Of a stretch of 64,000 bases of DNA, positions 14,786 to 26,108 are shown piece after piece. Below the pieces are notes generated by a model. It worked only from the letters and a program-made list of their open reading frames with translations, was not told the DNA's origin and did no database searches. Position 1 is the first letter of the stretch, and the number at the start of each line of letters is the position of its first letter. The stretch is from Flavobacteriales bacterium (GTDB lineage: Bacteria > Bacteroidota > Bacteroidia > Flavobacteriales_D > Sanyastnellaceae). The DNA is taken from assembly GCA_047636995.1 (NCBI GenBank), contig JBLIGQ010000012.1, positions 5,797 to 69,796 of the forward strand. Reading direction: 5' to 3'. Both the position numbers and the translations under genes were made by a program.

Positions 14786-14820
14786 AAATGTCCACTTTCT
14801 ATTTTGGAGGGTGGACATTT
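14786..14820. terminator. Bidirectional hairpin terminator
   Basis: Perfect 10-bp stem aaatgtccac / gtggacattt with a 15-nt loop, lying between convergent gene ends (14749 and 14824). Confidence 0.7.
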
Positions 14821-14823
14821 TAA

Positions 14824-15222
14824 TTATTCACTTACAAGCCGTTTTAGGAGATAGACGTCCAGCGGTTTTTCAAGCACCTTGATTATTTCTTCATTTTCCT
14901 CGGCCTTCTTTATGTCGTTCCGATCAATACTTGAAGATAGCATGAACACTTTGCATTGCTGACGAATTTCGATAGACAGATCCATAAACTTCTCGAAGAT
15001 TTCAAATCCGTTGTAGACCGGCATTTGGATATCAAGGAGAATTACATTCTGGTATTGATTCAATTCTTCCACATTAGAAGAGATGTAATTCAAGGCATCT
15101 GTTCCATTGGAGAAAGAGCGAATACGAGAAGTAAGGTTTGCTAGCTTGAGTAACTTAGTATTGACGACAATGTCAATGTCATTGTCATCAATCAAAAATA
15201 TATTTAGTTCTTTCTGGTTCAT
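14824..15222 (-). CDS. Single-domain response regulator (CheY-like receiver)
   Basis: LIDDNDID, LLDIQMPVYNGFE, MLSSS and EKPL: all canonical phospho-acceptor positions are present. There is no output domain. Confidence 0.9.
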   Translation of the reverse strand: MNQKELNIFLIDDNDIDIVVNTKLLKLANLTSRIRSFSNGTDALNYISSNVEELNQYQNVILLDIQMPVYNGFEIFEKFMDLSIEIRQQCKVFMLSSSIDRNDIKKAEENEEIIKVLEKPLDVYLLKRLVSE

Positions 15223-16307
15223 TTTCTATTGGGTAATACGACTTCAAAATAGGCACCTTCTCTAATTTCAGAAGCTAAGGATATTTTCCCTCCCATTTTC
15301 TCAACAGCCTCTTTTACAATAAATAGTCCAATTCCTGAACCAAGACTTTGCTCCGAGGAGCGGTAGAACATATCAAATACTCGAATTTGATCTTCTCTAG
15401 TGATTCCTAATCCGTTGTCTTTAACAGACAATACTAGTTCCTTTTCTGACGCCTTGACTGTAATTTGGACCAAAGATTCCTCTTTTGACTGATCTCTGTA
15501 TTTGACTGAGTTGGAAATTAAGTTATTCAAAATCATTTTCAGCCTCATTTCATCGAGCATGATTTCCCCCTCTTGGGTCACATCTTTGATGAATCGCACA
15601 TTGTCTGCACCTTCATAGAACCTAAAATGCTCAAAAATCTCATCAATTAGGTTTGCGCATTTTATAGATGTCAGGATTTCTCCTGTCTTGAGATTTTGGT
15701 AGTAGCTAATGATATTTTGAACAAAGCCATCAAGTTGGTTCACCGTTCTTTCTATCATTCCAAAGTACTCGCCTGAGACACCATCAATATTTTCCATTCG
15801 CGCTAATTTAAGCACGCCCAAAATGGATGCTAATGGGGCTCGAAGATCATGGCTAGCGCTGTAAACAAACTTTTCCAATTCATTGTATGCCTTTTGGATT
15901 TCTTCATTCTGCTCACGAAGACGAACCCGATTATTGTAGAGTTCGTAGGCATTATCAATGGTGATTTTCAAGTCTGTTTCATTCCAAGGTTTAGCTACAT
16001 AACGGAATACTTGACCCTTATTGATCGCATCTATCACAGCCTCAATATCAGCATAACCGGTGAGTAGTATCCGAACTGGGTCAGGAAAATCTGGAATAAT
16101 CAGTTCAAAAAACTCAACACCGCTTAAGTTGGGCATCTTTTGATCAGATATAACAACGTGAATTGTGTTCTCTGACAAAATCTGCACAGCCTCGTTTGCG
16201 CTAGAAGTAGTAAAGATTTGATAATCTCTTCTATAAGCGGCTTTGAATGACGTGAGGTTGTGCTCTTCGTCATCTAGGTATAAGATAGTAATCTTATCGT
16301 TTGACAT
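15219..16307 (-). CDS. Hybrid receiver-histidine kinase (N-terminal REC + HisKA + HATPase)
   Basis: REC motifs LDDEEHN, VISDQKMP, LLTGYAD and AKPW. H-box SASHDLRAPL, N-box LNNLISNSVKY, G1 DNGLGI, G2 GSGIGLFIV. Confidence 0.9.
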   Translation of the reverse strand: MSNDKITILYLDDEEHNLTSFKAAYRRDYQIFTTSSANEAVQILSENTIHVVISDQKMPNLSGVEFFELIIPDFPDPVRILLTGYADIEAVIDAINKGQVFRYVAKPWNETDLKITIDNAYELYNNRVRLREQNEEIQKAYNELEKFVYSASHDLRAPLASILGVLKLARMENIDGVSGEYFGMIERTVNQLDGFVQNIISYYQNLKTGEILTSIKCANLIDEIFEHFRFYEGADNVRFIKDVTQEGEIMLDEMRLKMILNNLISNSVKYRDQSKEESLVQITVKASEKELVLSVKDNGLGITREDQIRVFDMFYRSSEQSLGSGIGLFIVKEAVEKMGGKISLASEIREGAYFEVVLPNRK

Positions 16308-16319
16308 GAGGTAAGCGAA

Positions 16320-18455
16320 TTACGGCACTTTAGGTAAAGTTATAATAAATTCAGTTCCCAAATTAGGCTCGGTTTCCACAACTATTTTACCATTGTGGTG
16401 ATTGACAATTCCAAGCACAATGCTTAGTCCTAACCCGGTCCCCTCTCCCACGTCTTTCGTAGTAAAAAAGGGATCAAATATTTTAGATTTGACTTCCGGA
16501 TTCATTCCTCCTCCGTTGTCTTTAATTCGTATTTCAATTTTATCATTGACCTCAGTGGTCTTCACTGCAACCAATCGTTCTTTTAATGGCTTACCAGAGT
16601 TTTCAGTCGCATGCACGGCATTGGCTATGATGTTCATAAAAACCTGATTCAACTTCCCAGGATAACATTGTATTTTAGGCAGGTTCACATCGAATTCTTC
16701 CTTCACATTTGTTGCACCTCTAATGGTTGTTTTCAGAATGATTAAAGTTGATCTCAGACATTCATTAATGTCCGCTTTCTTCAAGTCATCCTCGTCTAGA
16801 CGTGAAAAAATCCTGAGTCCTTTCACAATTTCAGCTGTGCGCTGGGCACCATCTTCGATCCCCTTCATCAATAGATCAATTTCCGTTTTAAGGAAACCGA
16901 GTTCAAGCTCTTGACTTAAGGCTCTTGCTTGGTTGATTTTTTCAGTAGCCTGTTCACTCCCAGGTTCAGCAGATTCATAACAAGCAAGGATAGCCAATAG
17001 ATCATCTAAATCCCTCCTTAATGGCTTAATATTCGATGAAACGAAATTGATTGGATTATTCAATTCATGTGCGATTCCGGCAGTCATTTGACCTAACGAA
17101 GCCATCTTTTCAGCGTCGACCAATTGGGCCTGAGCAGAGCGCAATTCATCAAGGGTTATGTTAAGATCAGCATTTGATGTCTCCAGGGCATTTGTTCTTT
17201 CGTTCACCTTCACTTCAAGCAAAACATTTTGCTGTGTGATGATACGCTCATTTTCTTTCAATGCCTTCAGCTTTTGTAGCTGTTCTTTTTCTTTCTCTCT
17301 TTTCAGTTGATTGATTCGATCAGCCAATGCGAAGGAAAGCAACACTACTTCCAAGGCTGAACCAACGGGCAAAGCATATTTAGCAATGATATTGTTTGGG
17401 AAAACACCAACATCTCTGAGCACGAAAATAGTTACCCCAATCAAGAAGATTACAAATGCGATAAGGAAGAACAAAGCAGGCTTAAAGCCTTTTTGATAGC
17501 TTCTAATACCTGCGAACACCAATAGCAATGAAGCAACAGCGCAGAAGTTAATTAAATTGTAACTGAGTGTAAAATTGCCAATGGTAGCCAAGATAAAAGC
17601 CCCTAGGTAAACTATTAGATAGCCGTGCAGAATGTTATGAATTATTGGAGTAAACTGTTTGGTTCTTAGATAATGTTGAGCAAAAAGCACCGTCATAACA
17701 CCTGACAACACTCCTGAATAATGGGCAGACCTTAAACCTAACCAATTATTTTCTGGCCAAAAATACTGATTCCCGTATCCATTTAGAATGAGTTGAGTAA
17801 TCCCAACAAAGAAGATGAACAACACATAATACAGGTAATTATTATCTCGTACACTGAACCAAAGAAATAAGTTGTAGAGGAACATCACTAGGATAATCCC
17901 TGAATAAACCCCGAAGAAGATGTTCTTATTGTTCTGTTCAAAAATGACTGTATCCTCGTTTTCAATTCGAATGGGCACCATCAGCTGCTTCCCACTAACT
18001 AACCTCAAATAGACTATTGACTCATTTGAAGGCTGAAGTCTGAATACAAAATTGGGCACCTTAAATTGCCTTTGAGCAAAAGGAAATGCCTCGCCTTGTA
18101 TGTCTTCAATTCGAATACCCTCTGGTAACACTTGGTAAAAGAAGATGCTATCAATATTCGGATTTTGTAATTCAAGGACGGTCTCTTGGGTGGTTCTAGC
18201 AAGCTCAAATTTAATCCAATGAGCATTATCAGACACACCCAGGTTGGGGATTGAGCCTTCTACGGTCTTAAACGTTTCTTTTTGAACATCTTCGAACGAG
18301 AGGGCAGATGTAGAATCAGTAAATACGAGGATTTCTTGGGGCGGGCCGTTTGAGTTCGCGCTCGCGTTCGCGAAGGATAAAAACGAAACGAACAGGAGTA
18401 CTATAAATTTAACTCCGAGTTCAAAACACTGAATAAAGGATGTCGGTTTTCTCAT
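16320..18455 (-). CDS. 7TMR-DISM family sensor histidine kinase
   Basis: Signal peptide. Periplasmic 7TMR-DISMED2-like part (AHWIKFEL, LELQNPNIDSIFFYQV), about seven TM helices and a coiled coil. H-box GIAHELNNPINF, N-box MNIIANAVHA, G1 DNGGGM, G2 GTGLGLSI. Confidence 0.88.
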   Translation of the reverse strand: MRKPTSFIQCFELGVKFIVLLFVSFLSFANASANSNGPPQEILVFTDSTSALSFEDVQKETFKTVEGSIPNLGVSDNAHWIKFELARTTQETVLELQNPNIDSIFFYQVLPEGIRIEDIQGEAFPFAQRQFKVPNFVFRLQPSNESIVYLRLVSGKQLMVPIRIENEDTVIFEQNNKNIFFGVYSGIILVMFLYNLFLWFSVRDNNYLYYVLFIFFVGITQLILNGYGNQYFWPENNWLGLRSAHYSGVLSGVMTVLFAQHYLRTKQFTPIIHNILHGYLIVYLGAFILATIGNFTLSYNLINFCAVASLLLVFAGIRSYQKGFKPALFFLIAFVIFLIGVTIFVLRDVGVFPNNIIAKYALPVGSALEVVLLSFALADRINQLKREKEKEQLQKLKALKENERIITQQNVLLEVKVNERTNALETSNADLNITLDELRSAQAQLVDAEKMASLGQMTAGIAHELNNPINFVSSNIKPLRRDLDDLLAILACYESAEPGSEQATEKINQARALSQELELGFLKTEIDLLMKGIEDGAQRTAEIVKGLRIFSRLDEDDLKKADINECLRSTLIILKTTIRGATNVKEEFDVNLPKIQCYPGKLNQVFMNIIANAVHATENSGKPLKERLVAVKTTEVNDKIEIRIKDNGGGMNPEVKSKIFDPFFTTKDVGEGTGLGLSIVLGIVNHHNGKIVVETEPNLGTEFIITLPKVP

Positions 18456-19198
18456 TGTTTCACAAGAAGGTCATAATGGAGACTAATCTCGCCTTTAGGG
18501 CCAGACGAAACTCCCACCTTCTTGGGATTCTTACGCAACTCTTCAACTTCGGTTCTAAAATCAGGGTCCATATTATCAACATTCCCTACCGAAATGTAAT
18601 GCGCTACAGTGGCAATAAGCTTCTCAGTTGGATATGGAAAGCCTCCATTGTGGCCAATTTCAGTGATGGTTGTAAAGCCAAACCCCTTCATCCAACGTCG
18701 CGTAGGAGGAGAAGACAGCGCTAAAAGGTGAGTAATATTTAAGGTTTCGCACATACTTATTGCACAGCGAATAACAAGTTTACTTCCGATACCAAAACCG
18801 GCTACCTCCACTGAATTCCATAGTGCGCAAAGCTCAGCACATCCTTGAGGAATCATTTCTTCCACCACACTAGAAACGCGATCATCGAACTTCATAATTG
18901 CATTCTCTAATGGTAGTTTCTCTCCAATTTGGCGAACGTGAATTCTAGCTCCTCCATAGATTTTATGTCCGCTTGGGGAAGTCACTAGGATAACATATAC
19001 ATCCTTGGATTCAATCCATGTGTCACTCGAAGATGCCAGTTTTTTGAACCCATGATTTGCAAGCACAGCAAGGTGACCATCAACGAAACGTTGACTTGAA
19101 TTTACATCATCGCAAGCTCTAAACGCACGAATATGCACTTTCGAAATCTTGGCTGAATGTCCAGCTTTTATTTGACTACTAGTCCATGAAGAACTCAT
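18452..19198 (-). CDS. GNAT-fold (acyl-CoA N-acyltransferase / N-acyl amino acid synthase-like) protein, function unknown
   Basis: 248 aa. The segments KIYGGARIHV..LPLE and AELCALWNSVEVAGFGIGSKLVIRCAISMCE..LLALSSPPTRRWMKGFGF resemble a GNAT core with a V.G.G.GS pyrophosphate-loop-like motif. The fold was assigned by eye only. It overlaps the upstream gene by 20 nt and the downstream kinase by 4 nt. Confidence 0.5.
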   Translation of the reverse strand: MSSSWTSSQIKAGHSAKISKVHIRAFRACDDVNSSQRFVDGHLAVLANHGFKKLASSSDTWIESKDVYVILVTSPSGHKIYGGARIHVRQIGEKLPLENAIMKFDDRVSSVVEEMIPQGCAELCALWNSVEVAGFGIGSKLVIRCAISMCETLNITHLLALSSPPTRRWMKGFGFTTITEIGHNGGFPYPTEKLIATVAHYISVGNVDNMDPDFRTEVEELRKNPKKVGVSSGPKGEISLHYDLLVKQ

Positions 19199-20279
19199 CC
19201 ACGTCTAAAAATTTTCTTCCACTAATTCTATCATTCCCAAGAAGGATCATTCGTACCACTTGTGCTACTACTCCTGCTCCCATTGTCACTTCTGAGGCTA
19301 ACTGGGGCCAACGACTAATTGTCTTTCCCATTTCACTCAAAGAAACTTTCATCCGATCAGACAGTTCATCAAGACGCATGAGTTTCATCATGGTTTCCTG
19401 TGTCCATTCGCCGGTCTCCACCAAATGTAGGCATTCGTCATCAGTAAAGCGGCCGTGTAAGATTCCAATACTTGTATCTAGATCAAATCTCTCAACATCT
19501 AGCATTCCCCTATCAGAAGTCTCCATCACCACAGGAATGCCTAACGACCTGGCTTTCAATCTTGCAAGTATCTTTATTCGGATGTTATCACATTCTTCCA
19601 CTAGCACATCAAGTTGACTCCCATTGGTCGATAAAAATTCATCAATATTTTCATCTGTCACCCCTTGATCAAAAATCGTCACTTGAATGAAGGGGTCAAC
19701 TTCAGAAATTTCGCGTGCCACAATGGTCGTTTTCAAAAGACTGAGATTCGTCACCCCCGACCGCAGTCGATTGAGATTCGACAAATCAAGCCGATCTAGA
19801 TCAGCGATTCTAAGCTCCCCACCGATGCATTCCATCGCTAGAGCCATTGCCACACCCGAACCAACAGACATGCCTATGATTCCTATTGAAGCCTTTGCGA
19901 GTATCGCTTGTTCTTCTTTGTTAATCTTCAGCATGTTTCGGTTTGTTCTCACTTCACGAAACTCCTCTTCACCGAGTAAATGAACAAGCGCATTTCGCCA
20001 TGAATAGTACACCCAAATTCCATAGGCCTCAGGATGCTCACCCAATCTTGCGCGAACAGCCAGCTGAAATTCACTTTGGCTCCAACCGGAAGATGGTTGT
20101 CTGAGTTTGAAGAGTTCTTCGAGCTGTGCCTCAATTGTATCAAGAATCACCGGTTTTTCCGCCTCAATAAGCTGACCGATCCGCACCGCGTCCTGTTCCT
20201 TGGCTAAATTAAATATTTCGGGAAAGCAATTTTCATCTACTAGCGCAATTGTATCTGAAGGTAACAGTTCACTCAGCAT
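19179..20279 (-). CDS. ThiF/MoeB-type E1-like adenylyltransferase with Rv1355c-type N-terminal extension
   Basis: Nucleotide-binding block IGIIGMSVGSGVAMALAMECIGGELRIADLDRLDLSNLNRL. VEECDNIRIKILARL (the DN..R motif). The N-terminal ~130 aa contain WVYYSWRNALVHLL..F.EVRTNRN, as in Rv1355c/MoeY-like proteins. No CxxC zinc pairs, rhodanese domain or nitroreductase domain. Confidence 0.75.
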   Translation of the reverse strand: MLSELLPSDTIALVDENCFPEIFNLAKEQDAVRIGQLIEAEKPVILDTIEAQLEELFKLRQPSSGWSQSEFQLAVRARLGEHPEAYGIWVYYSWRNALVHLLGEEEFREVRTNRNMLKINKEEQAILAKASIGIIGMSVGSGVAMALAMECIGGELRIADLDRLDLSNLNRLRSGVTNLSLLKTTIVAREISEVDPFIQVTIFDQGVTDENIDEFLSTNGSQLDVLVEECDNIRIKILARLKARSLGIPVVMETSDRGMLDVERFDLDTSIGILHGRFTDDECLHLVETGEWTQETMMKLMRLDELSDRMKVSLSEMGKTISRWPQLASEVTMGAGVVAQVVRMILLGNDRISGRKFLDVDEFFMD

Positions 20280-20402
20280 TTGAGATACGGTTTAGGTTAT
20301 TCGTTTCTAAAGTTGGTAAAATTTGGTGTCATTATTAAACTTTATTATTAAAACCTTTCATCCTATTGAAACCAATCATATTTCTCTGCGTATACCTCAT
20401 TT

Positions 20403-20867
20403 ATGAAGGCAATGGAAAACAATAGATTAATCGTGCTAGCTCCTCACAAATCAAGCATAACCAATGAGATCTTAAAGCCACAGCTTTTTGATGTCCGCAT
20501 CTACAGAACGGCAGAAGATGCCTGGTGCTTAGCAGAGAAAGAGCATATTTCTCTTTTCATTAGTTATGAAAAATTCATTCTCGGTTCGCCTGCCGGGTTT
20601 ATTCCTGCGTTGTTTGGCCTTCATCCAGAATTAGTTCACCTCTTTTTCTATTCAGACATCACAGTTGAAGAACTCGCAACTTTAGTAAACGCTTCTTCAA
20701 ACATTCATTTAGCCACTATTAATGCGCCAAAAAAAGCGCTCTTAAAAGCTGCAGATGAGGCAATGGAAAGCTATTTGAAAGGCGCTCAAAAATCTCAAAT
20801 AATTACTGAATTGACAGAGCAAAATGAGCAATATGAGTTTATGCTCAGACAATCGATGCTCTCATAA
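20403..20867 (+). CDS. Pseudo-receiver (REC-like fold lacking phospho-acceptor residues) with C-terminal coiled coil
   Basis: Alternating beta/alpha pattern like CheY: RLIVLAPHKS, ISLFISYEKF, LFFYSD, INAPKK. The acidic pair and the acceptor Asp are replaced. Confidence 0.5.
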   Translation: MKAMENNRLIVLAPHKSSITNEILKPQLFDVRIYRTAEDAWCLAEKEHISLFISYEKFILGSPAGFIPALFGLHPELVHLFFYSDITVEELATLVNASSNIHLATINAPKKALLKAADEAMESYLKGAQKSQIITELTEQNEQYEFMLRQSMLS

Positions 20868-20937: not shown

Positions 20938-21903
20938 ATGAATCCTATTTTATTTCCAGACCGTATAAACTGGTCTTATCAACCTTCAACTAGAAACTTC
21001 CTTTTTCTTTGTGAGTTTGGTCATTCACTGAAAGATGCATTTATTTCTGTGGATGAATTTGATGATTGGTTCGGACAAGCAACAGGAATACACCGATTAA
21101 ATGGAGATGCAGGTTCCTTCTTCCAAGTAATAGGAGCGAATGACCCTGCTGATTTCAAAGCGAACCTTCTTATCCTTTCGAGAGGGATTATTCTCCAATC
21201 AAGCCCTTTAACGGTGGCTGGATCTTCTGCTTTCAAAACACCAGAAACCATTGAAAGCATTGCAGATGTGGACAGAGCAAAATTGATTGCTGTATTGAGC
21301 TTATATGACAATAATGCCGCTAAGAATGTCACCCATGCTTTAAAGGCCCCTGTAAATAGAATTAAAGGAATAGCTCAGATTCTAAGATCTGAATTTACTG
21401 AATCTCCAGAACAAGAATTACTCATCAAATACCTTTCTCAAACGTCAGAAAAACTCGGTGTTATTGTTGATCACATTCTAAGAGACGGCGAGCTTTACAC
21501 CGAAAATGTAAAGATTGACTCTGTTGTTCTTTCCGCATTGCATGTGGCTAAGCGAATCAATGACCGCCCTATAAGCTCAAATGTTAATGTTCCTGAAGTG
21601 CAACTCTCCCCTGCTTATGCTTCTGTACTGGAGCGCGTAATAATAGAATTGCTTTCTATTAACCAGCCGTTGTTTTCCCACGGCTGTTCATTAGACATCT
21701 CTGTACTGAGCACTACCGGAATTACCTTGCGAATTAATCACCATTTCCCAGCTGGAAAAATGGAATTAGAGAAGGGGAAACTAATCGAAGAGAATTCGAT
21801 TCCTGCAGGCGTCAATGAATTAATGCTTCGATGGGAAAAATCTACCTTTATTACAGCAACAGAAATAGATGCCTGGTCTTACAGTTTTTACCTCCCTCTT
21901 TAA
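20938..21903 (+). CDS. Histidine-kinase-like protein with HisKA-type H-box but no recognisable ATPase boxes
   Basis: NVTHALKAPVNRIKGIAQILR resembles an H-box/dimerisation helix. The C-terminal ~130 aa lack N, G1 and G2 motifs. The N-terminal ~120 aa are unassigned. Confidence 0.5.
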   Translation: MNPILFPDRINWSYQPSTRNFLFLCEFGHSLKDAFISVDEFDDWFGQATGIHRLNGDAGSFFQVIGANDPADFKANLLILSRGIILQSSPLTVAGSSAFKTPETIESIADVDRAKLIAVLSLYDNNAAKNVTHALKAPVNRIKGIAQILRSEFTESPEQELLIKYLSQTSEKLGVIVDHILRDGELYTENVKIDSVVLSALHVAKRINDRPISSNVNVPEVQLSPAYASVLERVIIELLSINQPLFSHGCSLDISVLSTTGITLRINHHFPAGKMELEKGKLIEENSIPAGVNELMLRWEKSTFITATEIDAWSYSFYLPL

Positions 21904-23371: not shown

Positions 23372-24292
23372 ATGAAAGAACGGCGTTTTATGCATCAAAG
23401 TGTGTCAAATTTGGCATGGGCTATGAGAAGTGCGCCTTTGATGTTAGCTCAACCAAAGTCACCCTATACAACACTTGATGAAAACTGGTTCGCTGCAAAC
23501 TACGAGCTCCACGAAGAGTGGATCTGGCGATTGGACGCGGATCCTAAGCCGCTAGATGATTTTTTAAGGAGTGAATATAGACTTCCTCTAGGTAAGAAGT
23601 TTGAACGGCTTATTGAGTTTTGGCTGCGCGAAAGTGAACACTTTGAACTCTTAGCAAATAACGTTCAGCTTTCAGAAGGAAAAGAAACGGTGGGCGAAAT
23701 CGATTTCATTTTCAAAGATGCGGCCTCTAGAGACGTTTTCCACATGGAAGTGGCTTGCAAATTCTATTTGTGCTCTAATAAAAGCAAAGCTTGGCACCAC
23801 TGGATTGGACCGAATGGCAATGACAATCTAGCGTTGAAAATGAACAAGTTAACTAAACAGCTTGCCATCACTTCTTCGCCTGCAGGCAAACGTTATTTGG
23901 ACGAAAACAAAATAGTTGAACCCAAGCCGGTGCTCTTCATGAAAGGCTTGTTTTTCCATCATTACCAAGATTTATTTCATTCAAATTCACCAATTTTTAG
24001 CGCCAAAAATTATGGGACTGGGTGGTGGGTTCGCTTGGCTGAGTTAGATCACTTCTTTGCATCAGATGGCACCTGGATGGTTCTTCAAAAATCTGATTGG
24101 CTCTCGAATTACGAAACGAGTTTCGGCACAAACGAAATTTATGAAAGCTACCAGATGAAGGCAATATGTCATGAGCTCATTGCCAAATACAAGCGGTCAA
24201 TCACCGTTATTCAGTTATTCCCTAGCGAGGTAGGCTATTCGGAGGGTTCCCGCGGATTTGTTGTCCCAAACCACTGGCCAGATAAACGTTAA
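23372..24292 (+). CDS. DUF1853 family protein (putative PD-(D/E)xK-like nuclease fold)
   Basis: GEIDFIFKD....FHMEVACKFYL is the conserved acidic/Lys core I associate with DUF1853. The start could be Met at 23390. Confidence 0.55.
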   Translation: MKERRFMHQSVSNLAWAMRSAPLMLAQPKSPYTTLDENWFAANYELHEEWIWRLDADPKPLDDFLRSEYRLPLGKKFERLIEFWLRESEHFELLANNVQLSEGKETVGEIDFIFKDAASRDVFHMEVACKFYLCSNKSKAWHHWIGPNGNDNLALKMNKLTKQLAITSSPAGKRYLDENKIVEPKPVLFMKGLFFHHYQDLFHSNSPIFSAKNYGTGWWVRLAELDHFFASDGTWMVLQKSDWLSNYETSFGTNEIYESYQMKAICHELIAKYKRSITVIQLFPSEVGYSEGSRGFVVPNHWPDKR

Positions 24293-25050
24293 CTGTCTAA
24301 CCAGTCCTTGAAAGCGGCAGTTCGTTCTCTAGCGACCACAATCATTTCCTCTTCTAGACCTTGGATTTCCAGACGCAGCCTGCTATTGCTCCATGATGTG
24401 ATTTCACCAATGGCTGCCGTTGAAATTATAAATTTCCGATTGATTCGAAAGAAAATTTTCGGGTCCAGCTGAGGCTCCATGGCCTCTAAAGACTTATCAA
24501 TGGGATAACTGCGGTGATCTTTAGTGAACAAACAGGTGATTTTATCTTCGCTATAAAACCCAAGGACATCATCAATGGGGAAGAACTTGAGCTTATCTCC
24601 TACCTTAATAAGGAAGCGATCTTTGAACGCCCTCTGCTCAAATTGAAGCTTCGCGAGCAATCCTGTTAAATCAAAATCAGGACTCTTGAACATGCGTTCT
24701 TCAAGTTTAACAACTGCGCTCAGCAGGTCTTCTTCATTGGAGGGTTTGAGCAGATAATCTATGCTCAAATGATTGAACGAACGAATGGCGTAGTGGTCAT
24801 AAGCTGTCAGAAACACGATAGGCAACTTAGTCTTAGCATGCTCAAACGCCTCAAAACTCAATCCATCTGCAAGCTGAATATCAGCAAAAACAGCGTCTGC
24901 ATCAGCATGCTGACCAAGCACATCAATGGCACTCGTAACAGAGTCTGCGTAAGCCACGACCTTCCATTCTGGACGAACCGAAGTCAGCAGCCGCTCCAAT
25001 CGTTTTACAGCCCTAGGCTCATCTTCTATGATGATAATTCTCTTGCTCAT
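24289..25050 (-). CDS. LytR/AlgR family response regulator (REC + LytTR DNA-binding domain)
   Basis: IIIIEDEP, FADIQLADG, VFLTAY and LLKP in the receiver. C-terminal LytTR pattern (FLIKVGDKLKFFPIDDVLGFYSEDK...FFRINRKFII). Confidence 0.9.
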   Translation of the reverse strand: MSKRIIIIEDEPRAVKRLERLLTSVRPEWKVVAYADSVTSAIDVLGQHADADAVFADIQLADGLSFEAFEHAKTKLPIVFLTAYDHYAIRSFNHLSIDYLLKPSNEEDLLSAVVKLEERMFKSPDFDLTGLLAKLQFEQRAFKDRFLIKVGDKLKFFPIDDVLGFYSEDKITCLFTKDHRSYPIDKSLEAMEPQLDPKIFFRINRKFIISTAAIGEITSWSNSRLRLEIQGLEEEMIVVARERTAAFKDWLDS

Positions 25051-26108
25051 TTCTCTGTATTTTGAATGCGAATGAAAGGAACTTCAACACTAAAAAAGCC
25101 ATCAGCATCTTTCACTACCACCTGTTGATCACTTAACACTTGGTATCTATTTTTAAGGAAGGTCAACCCCAAATTCGTAGATTTTTCTACTTGCCTTTTC
25201 AACTGAATTTGATTCTCCATTCGAACAGCCCTTTCCATAAAAATGAGACTCACCTTTAAGGGCTGCGCCGAAGACACTACATTGTGTTTAACGGCATTTT
25301 CTAGGAGGAGCTGCAAGGCCATTGGAACAATAAACAAGTCACCTTTGTGTGATTCCATTCCCGAAATCTCAAATTCAAAGTTTGAGCTAAATCGCTCTTT
25401 GAGCAATGCTGCAAAGGTTTTCAAAAATTCAACCTCTTCATCAATCGGCACCACTTCCTTGTCTCTGCTATCAAGCACATACCGATAAACATCGCTTAGT
25501 TTTCGGATGAATCGAACGGCTTGATCTTGGTTTTCGTAGACCAATTCAGAAAGCACATTCAAACTATTGAAAAGAAAATGCGGATTCATTTGATTCCGAA
25601 GCGTTGCATATTGCTGGGCAACGACTTCATTTTTCAATTTTTCTGAGTTTACTGCTGCTTCTCGCCAGCCGCGGAAAAAACCAATCGCCGTCATGATTGT
25701 TGAAATAACGATTGAGACAATGACTGCAATTCTTCCTGTTCTAAAGAACCGATTCCAGAACTCAGCACCTGTAAAGAAGTCTTCTTTATTGTACCCAAAA
25801 ACGAAGTATTCAAAGGAGAGCTGAACAATCTGAAATGCGGTAAAAGAAAAAAGAACTAAAACCAAAAAACCAATTAAGAGACGTTTCCAAGGGTGTGTCA
25901 GCCATGAAATTCTAGTATCTAATTTCTCAATGAGGTATCCATTCCCGATTGACTGGGTGAAAAAGATCGCCATGGACCAAGACGTCAGGAGAAAGAACAT
26001 GCGAGGTGAATCAAAAATTCGCCCTGATGAAAAAATGTATCCTGCAATAATTGAGATTACTGCTACAATAGCATAATAAACACCCTTTCTGATTCCCTTA
26101 GTTCTCAT
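25047..26108 (-). CDS. LytS/YehU-type sensor histidine kinase
   Basis: Four N-terminal TM helices. His_kinase block LRNQMNPHFLFNSLNVLSELV. GHKL N-box LLENAVKHN. Confidence 0.85.
   Translation of the reverse strand: MRTKGIRKGVYYAIVAVISIIAGYIFSSGRIFDSPRMFFLLTSWSMAIFFTQSIGNGYLIEKLDTRISWLTHPWKRLLIGFLVLVLFSFTAFQIVQLSFEYFVFGYNKEDFFTGAEFWNRFFRTGRIAVIVSIVISTIMTAIGFFRGWREAAVNSEKLKNEVVAQQYATLRNQMNPHFLFNSLNVLSELVYENQDQAVRFIRKLSDVYRYVLDSRDKEVVPIDEEVEFLKTFAALLKERFSSNFEFEISGMESHKGDLFIVPMALQLLLENAVKHNVVSSAQPLKVSLIFMERAVRMENQIQLKRQVEKSTNLGLTFLKNRYQVLSDQQVVVKDADGFFSVEVPFIRIQNTEK

What the first reader, a model, noticed from the sequence alone, without database searches (positions are those of the whole stretch)
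14824..20279. Five-gene, translationally coupled operon joining an orphan E1-like adenylyltransferase and a GNAT-fold protein to a 7TMR-DISM phosphorelay
Seen: on the minus strand the order is E1-like (19179-20279), GNAT-fold (18452-19198), 7TMR-DISM sensor kinase (16320-18455), REC-HisKA-HATPase hybrid (15219-16307) and a single REC (14824-15222). The junctions are a 20-nt overlap, a 4-nt overlap, a 12-nt gap and a 4-nt overlap. There is no internal hairpin, and a strong terminator sits only at 14786-14820. Established: ThiF/MoeB-type enzymes adenylate a carboxylate (a Ubl tail, a peptide or a small acid). GNAT-fold enzymes transfer acyl or aminoacyl groups. Autoinducer loops such as CqsA/CqsS or LuxM/LuxN place the signal synthase next to its membrane sensor kinase. 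Inference: the two enzymes may make, or modify, a small molecule or peptide that the 7TM kinase senses, feeding a multi-step relay with no DNA-binding output in the operon. I know of no described system with this architecture, but this is hypothesis only.
Basis: partly seen in the sequence, partly recalled or inferred. Interest (0 to 1): 0.72.

Follow-up and report, generated by a model that had tools for sequence, protein, structure and literature searches.

The report
Lipid-signal synthase wired to sensor kinases
A marine Flavobacteriales genome carries one tight operon that joins two enzymes of the recently discovered N-acyl-amino-acid/oxazolone lipid pathway to a seven-transmembrane sensor-kinase relay; the same pairing recurs in about 200 Bacteroidota species, which suggests these lipids of unknown role are signals with their own receptor.

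Summary
Five minus-strand genes sit at exactly the stated coordinates with the stated overlaps.

The two enzymes can now be named more precisely.
- The 366-aa E1-like protein is not an orphan. It is the ThiF cyclase half of the Rv1355c/TrzS oxazolone synthetase family, without the flavin oxidase (FDO) domain.
- The 248-aa protein matches no Pfam or NCBIfam model. It models confidently as a GNAT fold, and its closest solved structures are FeeM and LuxI-type synthases. It is a remote profile-level homolog (hhalign 90.6%) of actinobacterial TrzA-like N-acyl amino acid synthases.

So the pair belongs to a known pathway kind (OxzAB, TyzACB, TrzAS).

The new part is the context. Across 81 non-redundant Bacteroidota loci:
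- the synthase is directly followed by a 7TMR-DISM histidine kinase in 78 of 79 assessable loci;
- a REC-kinase hybrid follows in 69 of 70;
- a divergent receiver lies upstream in 73 of 77;
- the partner enzyme varies: ThiF (29), ThiF-FDO (13), an ICMT-type carboxyl methyltransferase (24) or none (9). ThiF and ICMT never occur together.

Most likely the operon makes a carboxyl-masked N-acyl amino acid that the kinase senses. The direction of that link is not proven. I found no paper that describes the coupling.

The parts
19179..20279 (-). ThiF/E1-like adenylating cyclase. It is the TrzS (Rv1355c)-family ThiF half without the C-terminal flavin-dependent oxidase domain. Predicted to cyclise an N-acyl amino acid to a 5(4H)-oxazolone using ATP.
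   Evidence: PF00899, 59 bits. NF005901 'Rv1355c family', 402.6 bits over model positions 11-338 of 722. Invariant G136, S138-V-G140, D160, D162, N170-R171, K183, E229-C230-D231, D256, R264 and W324-P-Q326 across short and long orthologs. AF2 pLDDT 86.5. Foldseek top hits: AclA, PaaA, ThiF, TcdA. Closest solved structure by sequence: TcdA, 3.9e-10.
18452..19198 (-). GNAT-fold N-acyl amino acid synthase of an unnamed Bacteroidota family; a remote homolog of TrzA-type synthases.
   Evidence: No Pfam or NCBIfam hit. AF2 pLDDT 88.6. Foldseek top hits: FeeM 2g0b (E 3.9e-8), then the LuxI-type synthases BjaI, RpaI, MesI, EsaI and LasI. hhalign against the Nocardia TrzA-like family: 90.6%, E 1.3e-6, 186 columns. 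Invariant YGGAR, LWNS-x-x-V-x-G-x-G-x-G and Y-P motifs.
16320..18455 (-). 7TMR-DISM sensor histidine kinase: signal/TM segment, periplasmic DISMED2 domain, 7 TM helices, HisKA (H463) and HATPase.
   Evidence: PF07696 94.7 bits, PF07695 171.6 bits, PF00512, PF02518. TM segments and H/N/G boxes. Directly follows the synthase in 78 of 79 assessable loci.
15219..16307 (-). Receiver-histidine kinase hybrid (REC D55, HisKA H153, HATPase).
   Evidence: Pfam. Motifs. Present after the 7TMR kinase in 69 of 70 assessable loci.
14824..15222 (-). Stand-alone receiver domain (DD12-13, D64, K119); a facultative last gene of the operon.
   Evidence: PF00072 44 bits. Motifs. Present in 19 of 66 assessable loci.
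14786..14820 (.). Hairpin between the convergent operon end and the M42 peptidase gene; a probable bidirectional terminator.
   Evidence: 16-pair stem. Sequence context and weak minus-strand T-tract.
20280..20402 (.). Divergent intergenic region, presumed to hold the promoters of the operon and of the pseudo-receiver gene.
   Evidence: Position only. No exact TAnnTTTG -7 box was found in it.
20403..20867 (+). Degenerate (pseudo-)receiver. It is the ortholog of the divergent REC gene that accompanies the cassette in other lineages.
   Evidence: Aligns end to end with the divergent RECs and shares their invariant C-terminal N-x-Q-x-EF(L/M)LRQ-x-LLS motif. It lacks the DD pair, the phospho-acceptor Asp, and the conserved Thr and Lys. 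A divergent REC or this form is present in 73 of 77 loci.
20938..21903 (+). HisKA-containing protein without recognisable ATPase boxes. It accompanies the pseudo-receiver only in the window's own clade.
   Evidence: PF00512 26.5 bits, just under the cut-off. H133 in HALKAP; no N, G1 or G2 boxes. Syntenic in L004 and L008-L011.

Best explanation
This is a conserved Bacteroidota 'synthase plus sensor' cassette. The 248-aa GNAT-fold enzyme N-acylates an amino acid, probably from an acyl-CoA, as its remote relatives TrzA, TyzA, OxzA and FeeM do. The 366-aa ThiF enzyme adenylates the free carboxylate of that N-acyl amino acid. The amide oxygen then closes the ring to give an N-acyl 5(4H)-oxazolone (azlactone). 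The ring would be saturated here, because the flavin oxidase domain is missing. In sister lineages the same carboxylate would instead be cyclised and desaturated (ThiF-FDO), methyl-esterified (ICMT) or left free. The product would thus be a small, neutral or labile amphiphile. I propose that the co-transcribed 7TMR-DISM kinase perceives it, through its 7-TM bundle or its periplasmic DISMED2 domain. The kinase would pass phosphate to the receiver of the REC-kinase hybrid, whose own kinase then acts on the stand-alone receiver(s). The output goes through protein partners or unlinked regulators. Shown: gene order, domain identities, intact catalytic motifs, fold, remote homology, and conservation of the cassette. 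Inferred: the substrates, the azlactone product, co-transcription, and above all that the kinase senses the product.
For: Enzyme identities: NF005901 Rv1355c-family match of 402.6 bits covering the whole protein. Intact adenylation residues, including D231, the Asp of the conserved ECD motif; I take it, by motif, to be the counterpart of the TrzS Asp217 whose D217A variant loses cyclase activity (PMC12856293). GNAT fold with FeeM and BjaI as nearest structures, the same two structures reported as nearest to TyzA (PMC10404671). Profile homology to the TrzA-like family, 90.6%. A natural ThiF-linker-synthase fusion, P0279. ThiF alone suffices for ring closure: TrzS with the oxidase disabled gives the saturated cyclised intermediate (PMC12856293). 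Coupling to the relay: the 7TMR-DISM kinase follows the synthase in 78 of 79 loci, the REC-kinase hybrid in 69 of 70, and a divergent REC is present in 73 of 77. This holds across Flavobacteriales, Chitinophagales, Cytophagales and Sphingobacteriales, plus one MAG labelled Saprospiraceae, with unrelated flanks. It also survives a swap in gene order in Chitinophaga varians. The partner enzymes are mutually exclusive and both act on carboxylates: ThiF 42 loci, ICMT 24 loci, never both. That fits a product with a free COOH that is masked. Overlapping or near-abutting genes and a single terminal hairpin fit one transcript. The authors of the oxazolone papers themselves suspect a signalling role and note the resemblance to AHLs (PMC12856293; 10.1101/2020.06.11.147165).
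Against: No experiment and no ligand evidence exists. Adjacency cannot tell 'the kinase senses the product' from 'the kinase controls the enzymes'. The kinase keeps a large periplasmic DISMED2 domain, unlike the lipid-sensing kinases LuxN and CqsS, so it may sense an external carbohydrate-like cue. No DNA-binding regulator is encoded that could close an autoinduction loop. Saturated azlactones hydrolyse and racemise readily, so the true end product may differ. One locus has the enzymes without the kinase (L026) and one lacks the hybrid (L016). Homology to TrzA is remote, and the Nocardia protein used as the anchor is assigned as TrzA by synteny only. No promoter could be identified.
Confidence: 0.5

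Rival explanations
1. The lipid is the output, not the input. The 7TMR-DISM kinase senses an external cue, for example a glycan bound by DISMED2. The relay then controls the activity or amount of the synthase and ThiF enzymes. Their product would act as an antimicrobial, a surfactant, or a membrane or outer-membrane-vesicle lipid.
For: The DISMED2 domain is retained (94.7 bits). N-acyl tyrosines and related lipoamino acids from Bacteroidota and Planctomycetes are antimicrobial (PMC8433624, PMC12479983). Oxazolone production in proteobacteria is induced by antibiotics (10.1101/2020.06.11.147165). Regulators are commonly encoded beside biosynthetic genes.
Against: There is no DNA-binding response regulator in or next to the cassette in any of the 81 loci. 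The enzymes sit upstream of the kinases in the same operon, so they are not a separately regulated target. The kinase stays with the synthase even when every accessory enzyme is lost (9 loci).
Confidence: 0.3
2. The link is co-inheritance and co-expression only. The lipid is a structural or stress-related envelope component, and the relay is an envelope-stress system that happens to share a promoter with it. Neither specifically recognises the other.
For: Tyrazolones and tryptazolones are found mostly in cell pellets and are linked to stress phenotypes in mycobacteria (PMC10404671, PMC12856293). The identities of the synthase and of the kinase parts to their window counterparts co-vary only moderately across loci (Spearman 0.38-0.42).
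Against: Near-invariant adjacency over about 35% protein identity and several orders, with changing flanks and a gene-order swap, is hard to maintain without a direct functional dependency.
Confidence: 0.13
3. The GNAT-fold protein acylates a protein, such as the kinase or a receiver, and the ThiF or ICMT enzyme modifies a protein C-terminus. This would be a post-translational control module rather than small-molecule synthesis.
For: GNATs include protein acetyltransferases that appear lower in the Foldseek list. E1 enzymes and eukaryotic ICMTs act on protein C-termini (established knowledge). One database protein fuses the GNAT to the kinase (P0276).
Against: The nearest structures are small-molecule synthases (FeeM, LuxI type). 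The protein is homologous to the TrzA-like family. The ThiF belongs to the small-molecule TrzS family. No Ubl-like ORF is present and the ThiF has no CxxC motif. The P0276 fusion lacks the signal/TM segment its topology needs, so it is probably an assembly or frameshift artefact.
Confidence: 0.05
4. Fortuitous adjacency of unrelated genes.
For: None beyond the absence of experimental data.
Against: 78 of 79 and 69 of 70 conservation across orders.
Confidence: 0.01

Closest known systems
TrzA/TrzS (Rv1356c/Rv1355c) N-acyl tryptazolone pathway of mycolic-acid bacteria (PMC12856293)
   Same: A GNAT-fold N-acyl amino acid synthase is encoded next to a ThiF cyclase of the same NCBIfam family (NF005901). 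The N-terminal extension and all adenylation residues are shared. The synthase is a remote profile homolog (90.6%). Thirteen sister loci carry the full ThiF-FDO fusion.
   Different: The window's ThiF lacks the flavin oxidase domain, and no FDO gene lies within 64 kb. Gene order is ThiF then synthase. The synthase is too diverged for single-sequence detection. The pair is embedded in a histidine-kinase operon rather than beside c-di-GMP genes.
OxzA/OxzB oxazolone synthetase of Pseudoalteromonas rubra and TyzACB of M. tuberculosis (10.1101/2020.06.11.147165; PMC10404671)
   Same: The same two-step logic: N-acylation of an amino acid, then ATP-dependent ThiF cyclisation to an oxazolone. TyzA has the same nearest structural neighbours (FeeM, BjaI).
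   Different: According to the TrzS paper, those ThiF domains fall in a different sequence subcluster. Both include a desaturase. They are stand-alone two- or three-gene clusters with no linked sensor.
Synthase/membrane-kinase autoinducer pairs LuxM/LuxN and CqsA/CqsS of Vibrio
   Same: The signal synthase is encoded next to a polytopic membrane histidine kinase that feeds a multi-step phosphorelay, and the signal is a small amphiphile.
   Different: No homology of the synthases or of the sensor domains; the only similarity seen is between receiver domains: the window's stand-alone REC (14824-15222) matches the receiver region of the LuxN model (E 2.1e-5). The kinase here has a periplasmic DISMED2 domain and a 7TMR-DISM bundle. 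Sensing of the product is unproven.
FeeM-type and LuxI-type acyl transferases
   Same: Best structural matches (TM up to 0.75-0.79 when normalised on the target). Three-layer GNAT scaffold.
   Different: 10-16% identity. No match to the Pfam Autoind_synth or FeeM models. No evidence for SAM use.
7TMR-DISM receptors (RetS, LadS, NicD, RgsP)
   Same: The same DISMED2 + 7TM sensor module fused to a signalling output.
   Different: To my knowledge, and in the papers I searched, none of these is encoded with a dedicated small-molecule synthase. The ligands of the family are largely unknown.

Membership tests
ThiF/E1-like superfamily (PF00899) | Rossmann-type adenylation domain with Gly-rich loop, Arg finger (NLNR) and Mg/alpha-phosphate Asp | tested here: met
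   PF00899 at 59.4 bits against a cut-off of 28.1. G136, S138-V-G140, N170-R171 and D231 are invariant. Foldseek hits to ThiF, MoeB and TcdA.
Rv1355c/TrzS oxazolone synthetase family (NF005901) | ThiF domain with the family-specific N-terminal extension | tested here: met
   402.6 bits, protein residues 18-363 on model positions 11-338. The score is below the 476-bit cut-off because only half the model is present.
Rv1355c/TrzS oxazolone synthetase family (NF005901) | C-terminal flavin-dependent oxidase (nitroreductase-fold) domain fused to or adjacent to the ThiF | tested here: not met
   The protein ends after the ThiF domain. tblastn with two FDO domains finds nothing in the 64-kb window. 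FDO is present as a fusion in 13 sister loci.
Rv1355c/TrzS oxazolone synthetase family (NF005901) | Adjacent N-acyl amino acid synthase gene | tested here: met
   20-nt overlap with the 248-aa GNAT-fold gene. A natural ThiF-synthase fusion, P0279, exists.
Rv1355c/TrzS oxazolone synthetase family (NF005901) | ATP-dependent cyclisation of an N-acyl amino acid to an oxazolone | not testable with these tools
   Needs enzyme assays.
TrzA/TyzA/OxzA-type N-acyl amino acid synthases (GNAT fold) | GNAT three-layer fold with FeeM and AHL synthases as nearest structures | tested here: met
   AF2 pLDDT 88.6. Foldseek: FeeM E 3.9e-8, BjaI 3.6e-7. The same neighbours are reported for TyzA (PMC10404671).
TrzA/TyzA/OxzA-type N-acyl amino acid synthases (GNAT fold) | Sequence homology to a TrzA-family member | tested here: met
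   Profile-profile hhalign against the family of the Nocardia farcinica gene directly upstream of its ThiF-FDO gene: 90.6%, E 1.3e-6, 186 columns. Against that single sequence alone: only 31%. Assigning the Nocardia gene as TrzA rests on synteny. The characterised proteins themselves could not be fetched.
TrzA/TyzA/OxzA-type N-acyl amino acid synthases (GNAT fold) | Acyl-CoA-dependent N-acylation of an L-amino acid | not testable with these tools
   A beta4-alpha3 loop V-x-G-x-G-x-G that resembles the GNAT pyrophosphate-binding motif is invariant. This is only suggestive.
Curated GNAT, FeeM and Autoind_synth sequence families (Pfam/NCBIfam) | A match above threshold to any curated acyltransferase model | tested here: not met
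   No hit for the window protein. Only 2 of 42 relatives touch Acetyltransf_1 or Acetyltransf_10, at E 0.16-0.2.
7TMR-DISM sensor histidine kinases | DISMED2 extracellular domain, 7TMR-DISM_7TM bundle and a cytoplasmic output (HisKA + HATPase) | tested here: met
   PF07696 94.7 bits, PF07695 171.6, PF02518 84.2, PF00512 27.5. TM profile and H463.
Autoinducer synthase/sensor-kinase circuits (LuxM/LuxN, CqsA/CqsS type) | Synthase gene adjacent to a polytopic membrane kinase gene | tested here: met
   4-nt overlap in the window. 78 of 79 loci.
Autoinducer synthase/sensor-kinase circuits (LuxM/LuxN, CqsA/CqsS type) | The kinase responds specifically to the synthase product; the response depends on cell density | not testable with these tools
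   Needs biochemistry and genetics.
Ubl-activating E1 (ThiF/MoeB in the strict sense) | A ThiS/MoaD-like partner and a Zn-binding CxxC pair | tested here: not met
   The cassette genes and the two divergent upstream genes scanned with Pfam/NCBIfam gave no ThiS/MoaD-type match. The protein has no CxxC motif (sequence).

The most novel reading that the evidence does not exclude
N-acyl amino acid derivatives with a masked carboxylate (azlactones from ThiF, unsaturated oxazolones from ThiF-FDO, methyl esters from ICMT) are a previously unrecognised class of bacterial autoinducers. The co-encoded 7TMR-DISM kinases are their receptors. That would give Bacteroidota a native quorum-sensing-type circuit, assign a physiological role to oxazolones, and supply the first self-made cognate ligand for a 7TMR-DISM receptor.
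Probability: 0.3. Interest if true: 0.9.

Novelty: new variant of a known kind. Interest (0 to 1): 0.72.

Why it matters
The oxazolone papers call the physiological role of these lipids 'a major unresolved question' (PMC12856293). They only speculate that the lipids are signals. This cassette ties the first biosynthetic enzyme of the pathway to a dedicated membrane sensor kinase in about 200 species, several of them cultured type strains. That turns the speculation into a direct experiment: make the compound, add it to the kinase. It also proposes a ligand class for 7TMR-DISM receptors, whose ligands are mostly unknown. It gives a candidate self-signalling system for Bacteroidota, a phylum without canonical LuxI/LuxR circuits. 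The exchange of ThiF, ThiF-FDO and ICMT on a fixed synthase-kinase core suggests natural diversification of the signal's head group. Finally, it defines an unnamed protein family: 595 representatives at 50% clustering, with no Pfam model.

Tried and rejected
- Sequence-model identification of the 248-aa protein failed with Pfam, NCBIfam and a PDB profile search. Only structure and profile-profile comparison worked.
- hhalign of the family against single ThiF-adjacent proteins from Brevibacillus (L087), Mycolicibacterium (L089), Rhodococcus (L090) and Streptomyces (L091) gave probabilities below 1%. Those neighbours are either unrelated or too diverged. The plasmid-borne Rv1355c-family genes lack a canonical upstream trzA.
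- A search for a separate FDO or ICMT gene in the window was negative.
- I could not locate a promoter. No TAnnTTTG -7 box lies in the 20280-20402 spacer, and the motif is not enriched in the window. The sigma-70 scan is at chance level.
- The GNAT-kinase fusion protein P0276 looked like a Rosetta stone. I rejected it as evidence because the junction lacks the signal/TM segment the topology needs.
- Co-variation of synthase and sensor-domain identity (rho about 0.41) is too weak and too confounded by phylogeny to argue for ligand-receptor co-evolution.
- A literature search for AclA, the top structural neighbour of the ThiF, found nothing usable.
- I considered Ubl activation, RiPP/MccB-like peptide modification and protein acetylation, and rejected them on the membership evidence above.

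Full report
**Observation.** The junctions are a 20-nt overlap (ATGAGTTCTTCATGGACTAG), an ATGA overlap, a 12-nt gap and a second ATGA overlap. Pfam and NCBIfam confirm the following:
- ThiF for the 366-aa protein;
- 7TMR-DISMED2 + 7TMR-DISM_7TM + HisKA + HATPase_c for the 711-aa protein;
- REC-HisKA-HATPase_c for the 362-aa protein;
- a lone REC for the 132-aa protein.

The phospho-acceptor and catalytic motifs are all present: H463 and the N, G1 and G2 boxes in the 7TM kinase; D55 and H153 in the hybrid; D64 in the last REC. The hairpin at 14786-14820 is real. It lies between convergent genes, and its T-tract on the operon strand is poor. I could not identify a promoter. Co-transcription therefore stays an inference from the overlaps and the conserved order.

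**The E1-like protein.** It is not an orphan. Its best NCBIfam match is NF005901, 'Rv1355c family protein' (3e-120, 402.6 bits). The match covers residues 18-363 of the protein but only positions 11-338 of the 722-position model. It is therefore the ThiF half of that family, including the family-specific N-terminal extension, without the C-terminal half.

[quoted passage not shown] TrzS converts N-acyl tryptophan, made by the neighbouring TrzA (Rv1356c), into N-acyl tryptazolones. Cyclisation comes first and needs ATP and Asp217. With the oxidase disabled, the saturated cyclised intermediate accumulates (PMC12856293). The same chemistry was first shown for OxzA/OxzB (bioRxiv 10.1101/2020.06.11.147165) and for TyzA/TyzB/TyzC (PMC10404671).

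In alignments of short and long orthologs these residues are invariant: the nucleotide loop G136, S138-V-G140; D160 and D162; N170-R171; K183; E229-C230-D231; and further residues. The window protein should therefore be catalytically competent. Its AF2 model (pLDDT 86.5) matches AclA, PaaA, ThiF, TcdA, MoeB and MccB. By sequence, the nearest solved structure is TcdA, itself an oxazolone-forming cyclodehydratase (PMC12596934). No FDO homolog exists anywhere in the 64-kb window.

**The 248-aa protein.** No Pfam or NCBIfam model matches it or 41 relatives at meaningful E-values. A profile search of PDB sequences finds nothing. The AF2 model is confident (pLDDT 88.6, pTM 0.86). Foldseek ranks FeeM, an N-acyl amino acid synthase, first. 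LuxI-type acyl-homoserine-lactone synthases (BjaI, RpaI, MesI, EsaI, LasI, TofI) come next, and generic GNATs follow. FeeM and BjaI are the very structures reported as closest to TyzA (PMC10404671).

To test homology directly, I located a canonical trzAS-like locus in Nocardia farcinica. A 249-aa ORF there overlaps the start of a ThiF-FDO ORF, and a GGDEF-EAL gene lies downstream, which is the layout described for Mtb. That single sequence aligns to the family profile at 31% probability. A profile of 31 of its relatives aligns at 90.6%, E 1.3e-6, over 186 collinear columns. The matching motifs are:
- YGGAR against GG-x-RAQGPY;
- ELCGLWNS against VVE-x-K-x-AWV;
- PYP-x-E against PYPDERY.

The protein is thus a remote member of the TrzA-type synthase lineage. 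An invariant V-x-G-x-G-x-G loop between beta4 and alpha3 resembles the GNAT CoA-pyrophosphate motif. A database protein, P0279, fuses the full ThiF to this synthase through a linker.

**The context is the new part.** The synthase family is confined to Bacteroidota-type genomes. It has 47 clusters at 90% identity, 595 representatives at 50% and relatives in 199 GTDB species genomes. I analysed 81 non-redundant loci with my own ORF and phmmer pipeline.
- The synthase is directly followed by a 7TMR-DISM kinase in 78 of 79 assessable loci. The one exception, L026, was checked by tblastn.
- A REC-kinase hybrid comes next in 69 of 70 loci (exception L016).
- A divergently transcribed single-domain REC lies upstream in 69 loci.
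- In 4 more loci, the window's own clade, that REC is replaced by a degenerate ortholog. This is the window's 154-aa ORF at 20403-20867. It keeps the family's invariant C-terminal N-x-Q-x-EF(L/M)LRQ-x-LLS motif but has lost the acidic pocket, the acceptor Asp, and the conserved Thr and Lys.
- The terminal REC is facultative (19 of 66 loci).

The flanking genes differ completely between lineages. In Chitinophaga varians the order is synthase-ThiF-kinase instead of ThiF-synthase-kinase.

**The swappable partner.** The enzyme that accompanies the synthase varies:
- short ThiF in 29 loci;
- ThiF-FDO fusion in 13 (Pfam ThiF + Nitroreductase);
- a 212-aa membrane protein of the ICMT/PEMT carboxyl-methyltransferase family, inserted between synthase and kinase, in 24 (PF04140, 70-77 bits);
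- none in 9.

ThiF and ICMT never co-occur. Both act on carboxylates. The simplest reading is that the synthase product carries a free carboxyl group, as an N-acyl amino acid does. Different lineages would then cyclise it, cyclise and desaturate it, methyl-esterify it, or leave it free. [quoted passage not shown] N-acyl tyrosine and phenylalanine have been isolated from the Bacteroidota genus Olivibacter (PMC8433624). These chemical predictions are inference.

**Mechanism and rivals.** My preferred model (about 0.5) has four steps.
1. The operon makes a carboxyl-masked N-acyl amino acid, in this genome a saturated azlactone.
2. The 7TMR-DISM kinase perceives it.
3. The kinase phosphorylates the hybrid's receiver.
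4. The hybrid's kinase acts on the stand-alone receiver(s), and the output goes through unlinked partners.

The main rival (about 0.3) reverses the arrow. The kinase senses an outside cue, perhaps through DISMED2, and the lipid is the effector. Against this, none of the 81 loci has a DNA-binding regulator, and the enzymes sit upstream in the same operon. Sequence alone cannot decide between the two. Weaker rivals are co-expression without specific recognition (about 0.13) and protein acylation (about 0.05). Chance adjacency is excluded.

**Novelty.** The enzyme pair is a known kind. The window shows a variant of it: no FDO domain, and a highly diverged synthase family with no name. I searched the full text of the five papers on the oxazolone pathway that the paper library returned. 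None contains 'histidine kinase', and four of the five do not contain 'kinase' at all. Library-wide searches that combined oxazolone or N-acyl amino acid synthase terms with 7TMR-DISM or sensor-kinase terms returned nothing relevant. Within that limited library, the coupling appears undescribed. I rate it a new variant of a known kind, with interest 0.72. It does not reveal new chemistry, but it makes the open question of what oxazolones are for directly testable. It also offers a candidate ligand class for 7TMR-DISM receptors and a candidate self-signalling system in Bacteroidota.

Noticed in passing
window 20403-20867 (+) and 20938-21903 (+): In the window's clade, the divergent receiver that accompanies the cassette elsewhere has lost every phospho-acceptor residue but keeps its invariant C-terminal helix motif. 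It has also gained a downstream HisKA-only protein (H133, no ATPase boxes). This looks like rewiring of one branch of the relay.
   Followed up: partly
L018 8744-9385, L074 8792-9430 and 22 other loci: In ThiF-less Chitinophagaceae loci, an ICMT/PEMT-family membrane carboxyl methyltransferase sits between the synthase and the kinase. It never occurs together with the ThiF.
   Followed up: yes
L028 2868-4586 and the same position in L033, L036, L039, L051, L052, L057, L058, L060, L065, L077, L080, L081, L083: Cyclobacteriaceae loci carry a conserved ORF of about 535-575 aa with a receiver-domain match about 3.5 kb upstream of the cassette. In L028 Pfam shows it is a REC-PglZ protein (alkaline-phosphatase superfamily). 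It is a possible output component.
   Followed up: no
P0179 (570 aa), P0199 (662 aa): The synthase domain also occurs fused to an N-terminal TIR domain and to leucine-rich repeats in metagenomic proteins. These architectures suggest other signalling or defence contexts.
   Followed up: no
P0276 (897 aa): An apparent synthase-7TMR-DISM kinase fusion. The junction lacks the signal/TM segment, so it is probably a frameshift or assembly artefact.
   Followed up: partly
L091 3974-5772 (Streptomyces plasmid) and L087 6115-8128 (Brevibacillus): Short, FDO-less Rv1355c-type ThiF genes also occur outside Bacteroidota. In Streptomyces the partner is an annotated GNAT gene with a 4-nt overlap; in Brevibacillus it is an unannotated 283-aa gene. 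Neither has a linked kinase. The partners are not detectably related to the Bacteroidota synthase family.
   Followed up: partly
L007, L019, L038, L081: Contigs that carry the cassette at 37-86% identity are labelled Comamonadaceae, Methylophilus, Beijerinckiaceae and Limnohabitans MAGs. These labels are probably binning errors.
   Followed up: no
window about 24288-26107 (-), mapped from L001 3091-4910: A separate LytS-type His_kinase/LytTR two-component pair and a 2TM protein lie about 4 kb beyond the divergent genes. They are not conserved with the cassette in other lineages.
   Followed up: no
PDB 9egb/9egc: The closest structural neighbour of the ThiF model is AclA from the flavobacterium Tenacibaculum discolor, solved with substrate in 2025. 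I could not find its paper, so I do not know its chemistry.
   Followed up: partly
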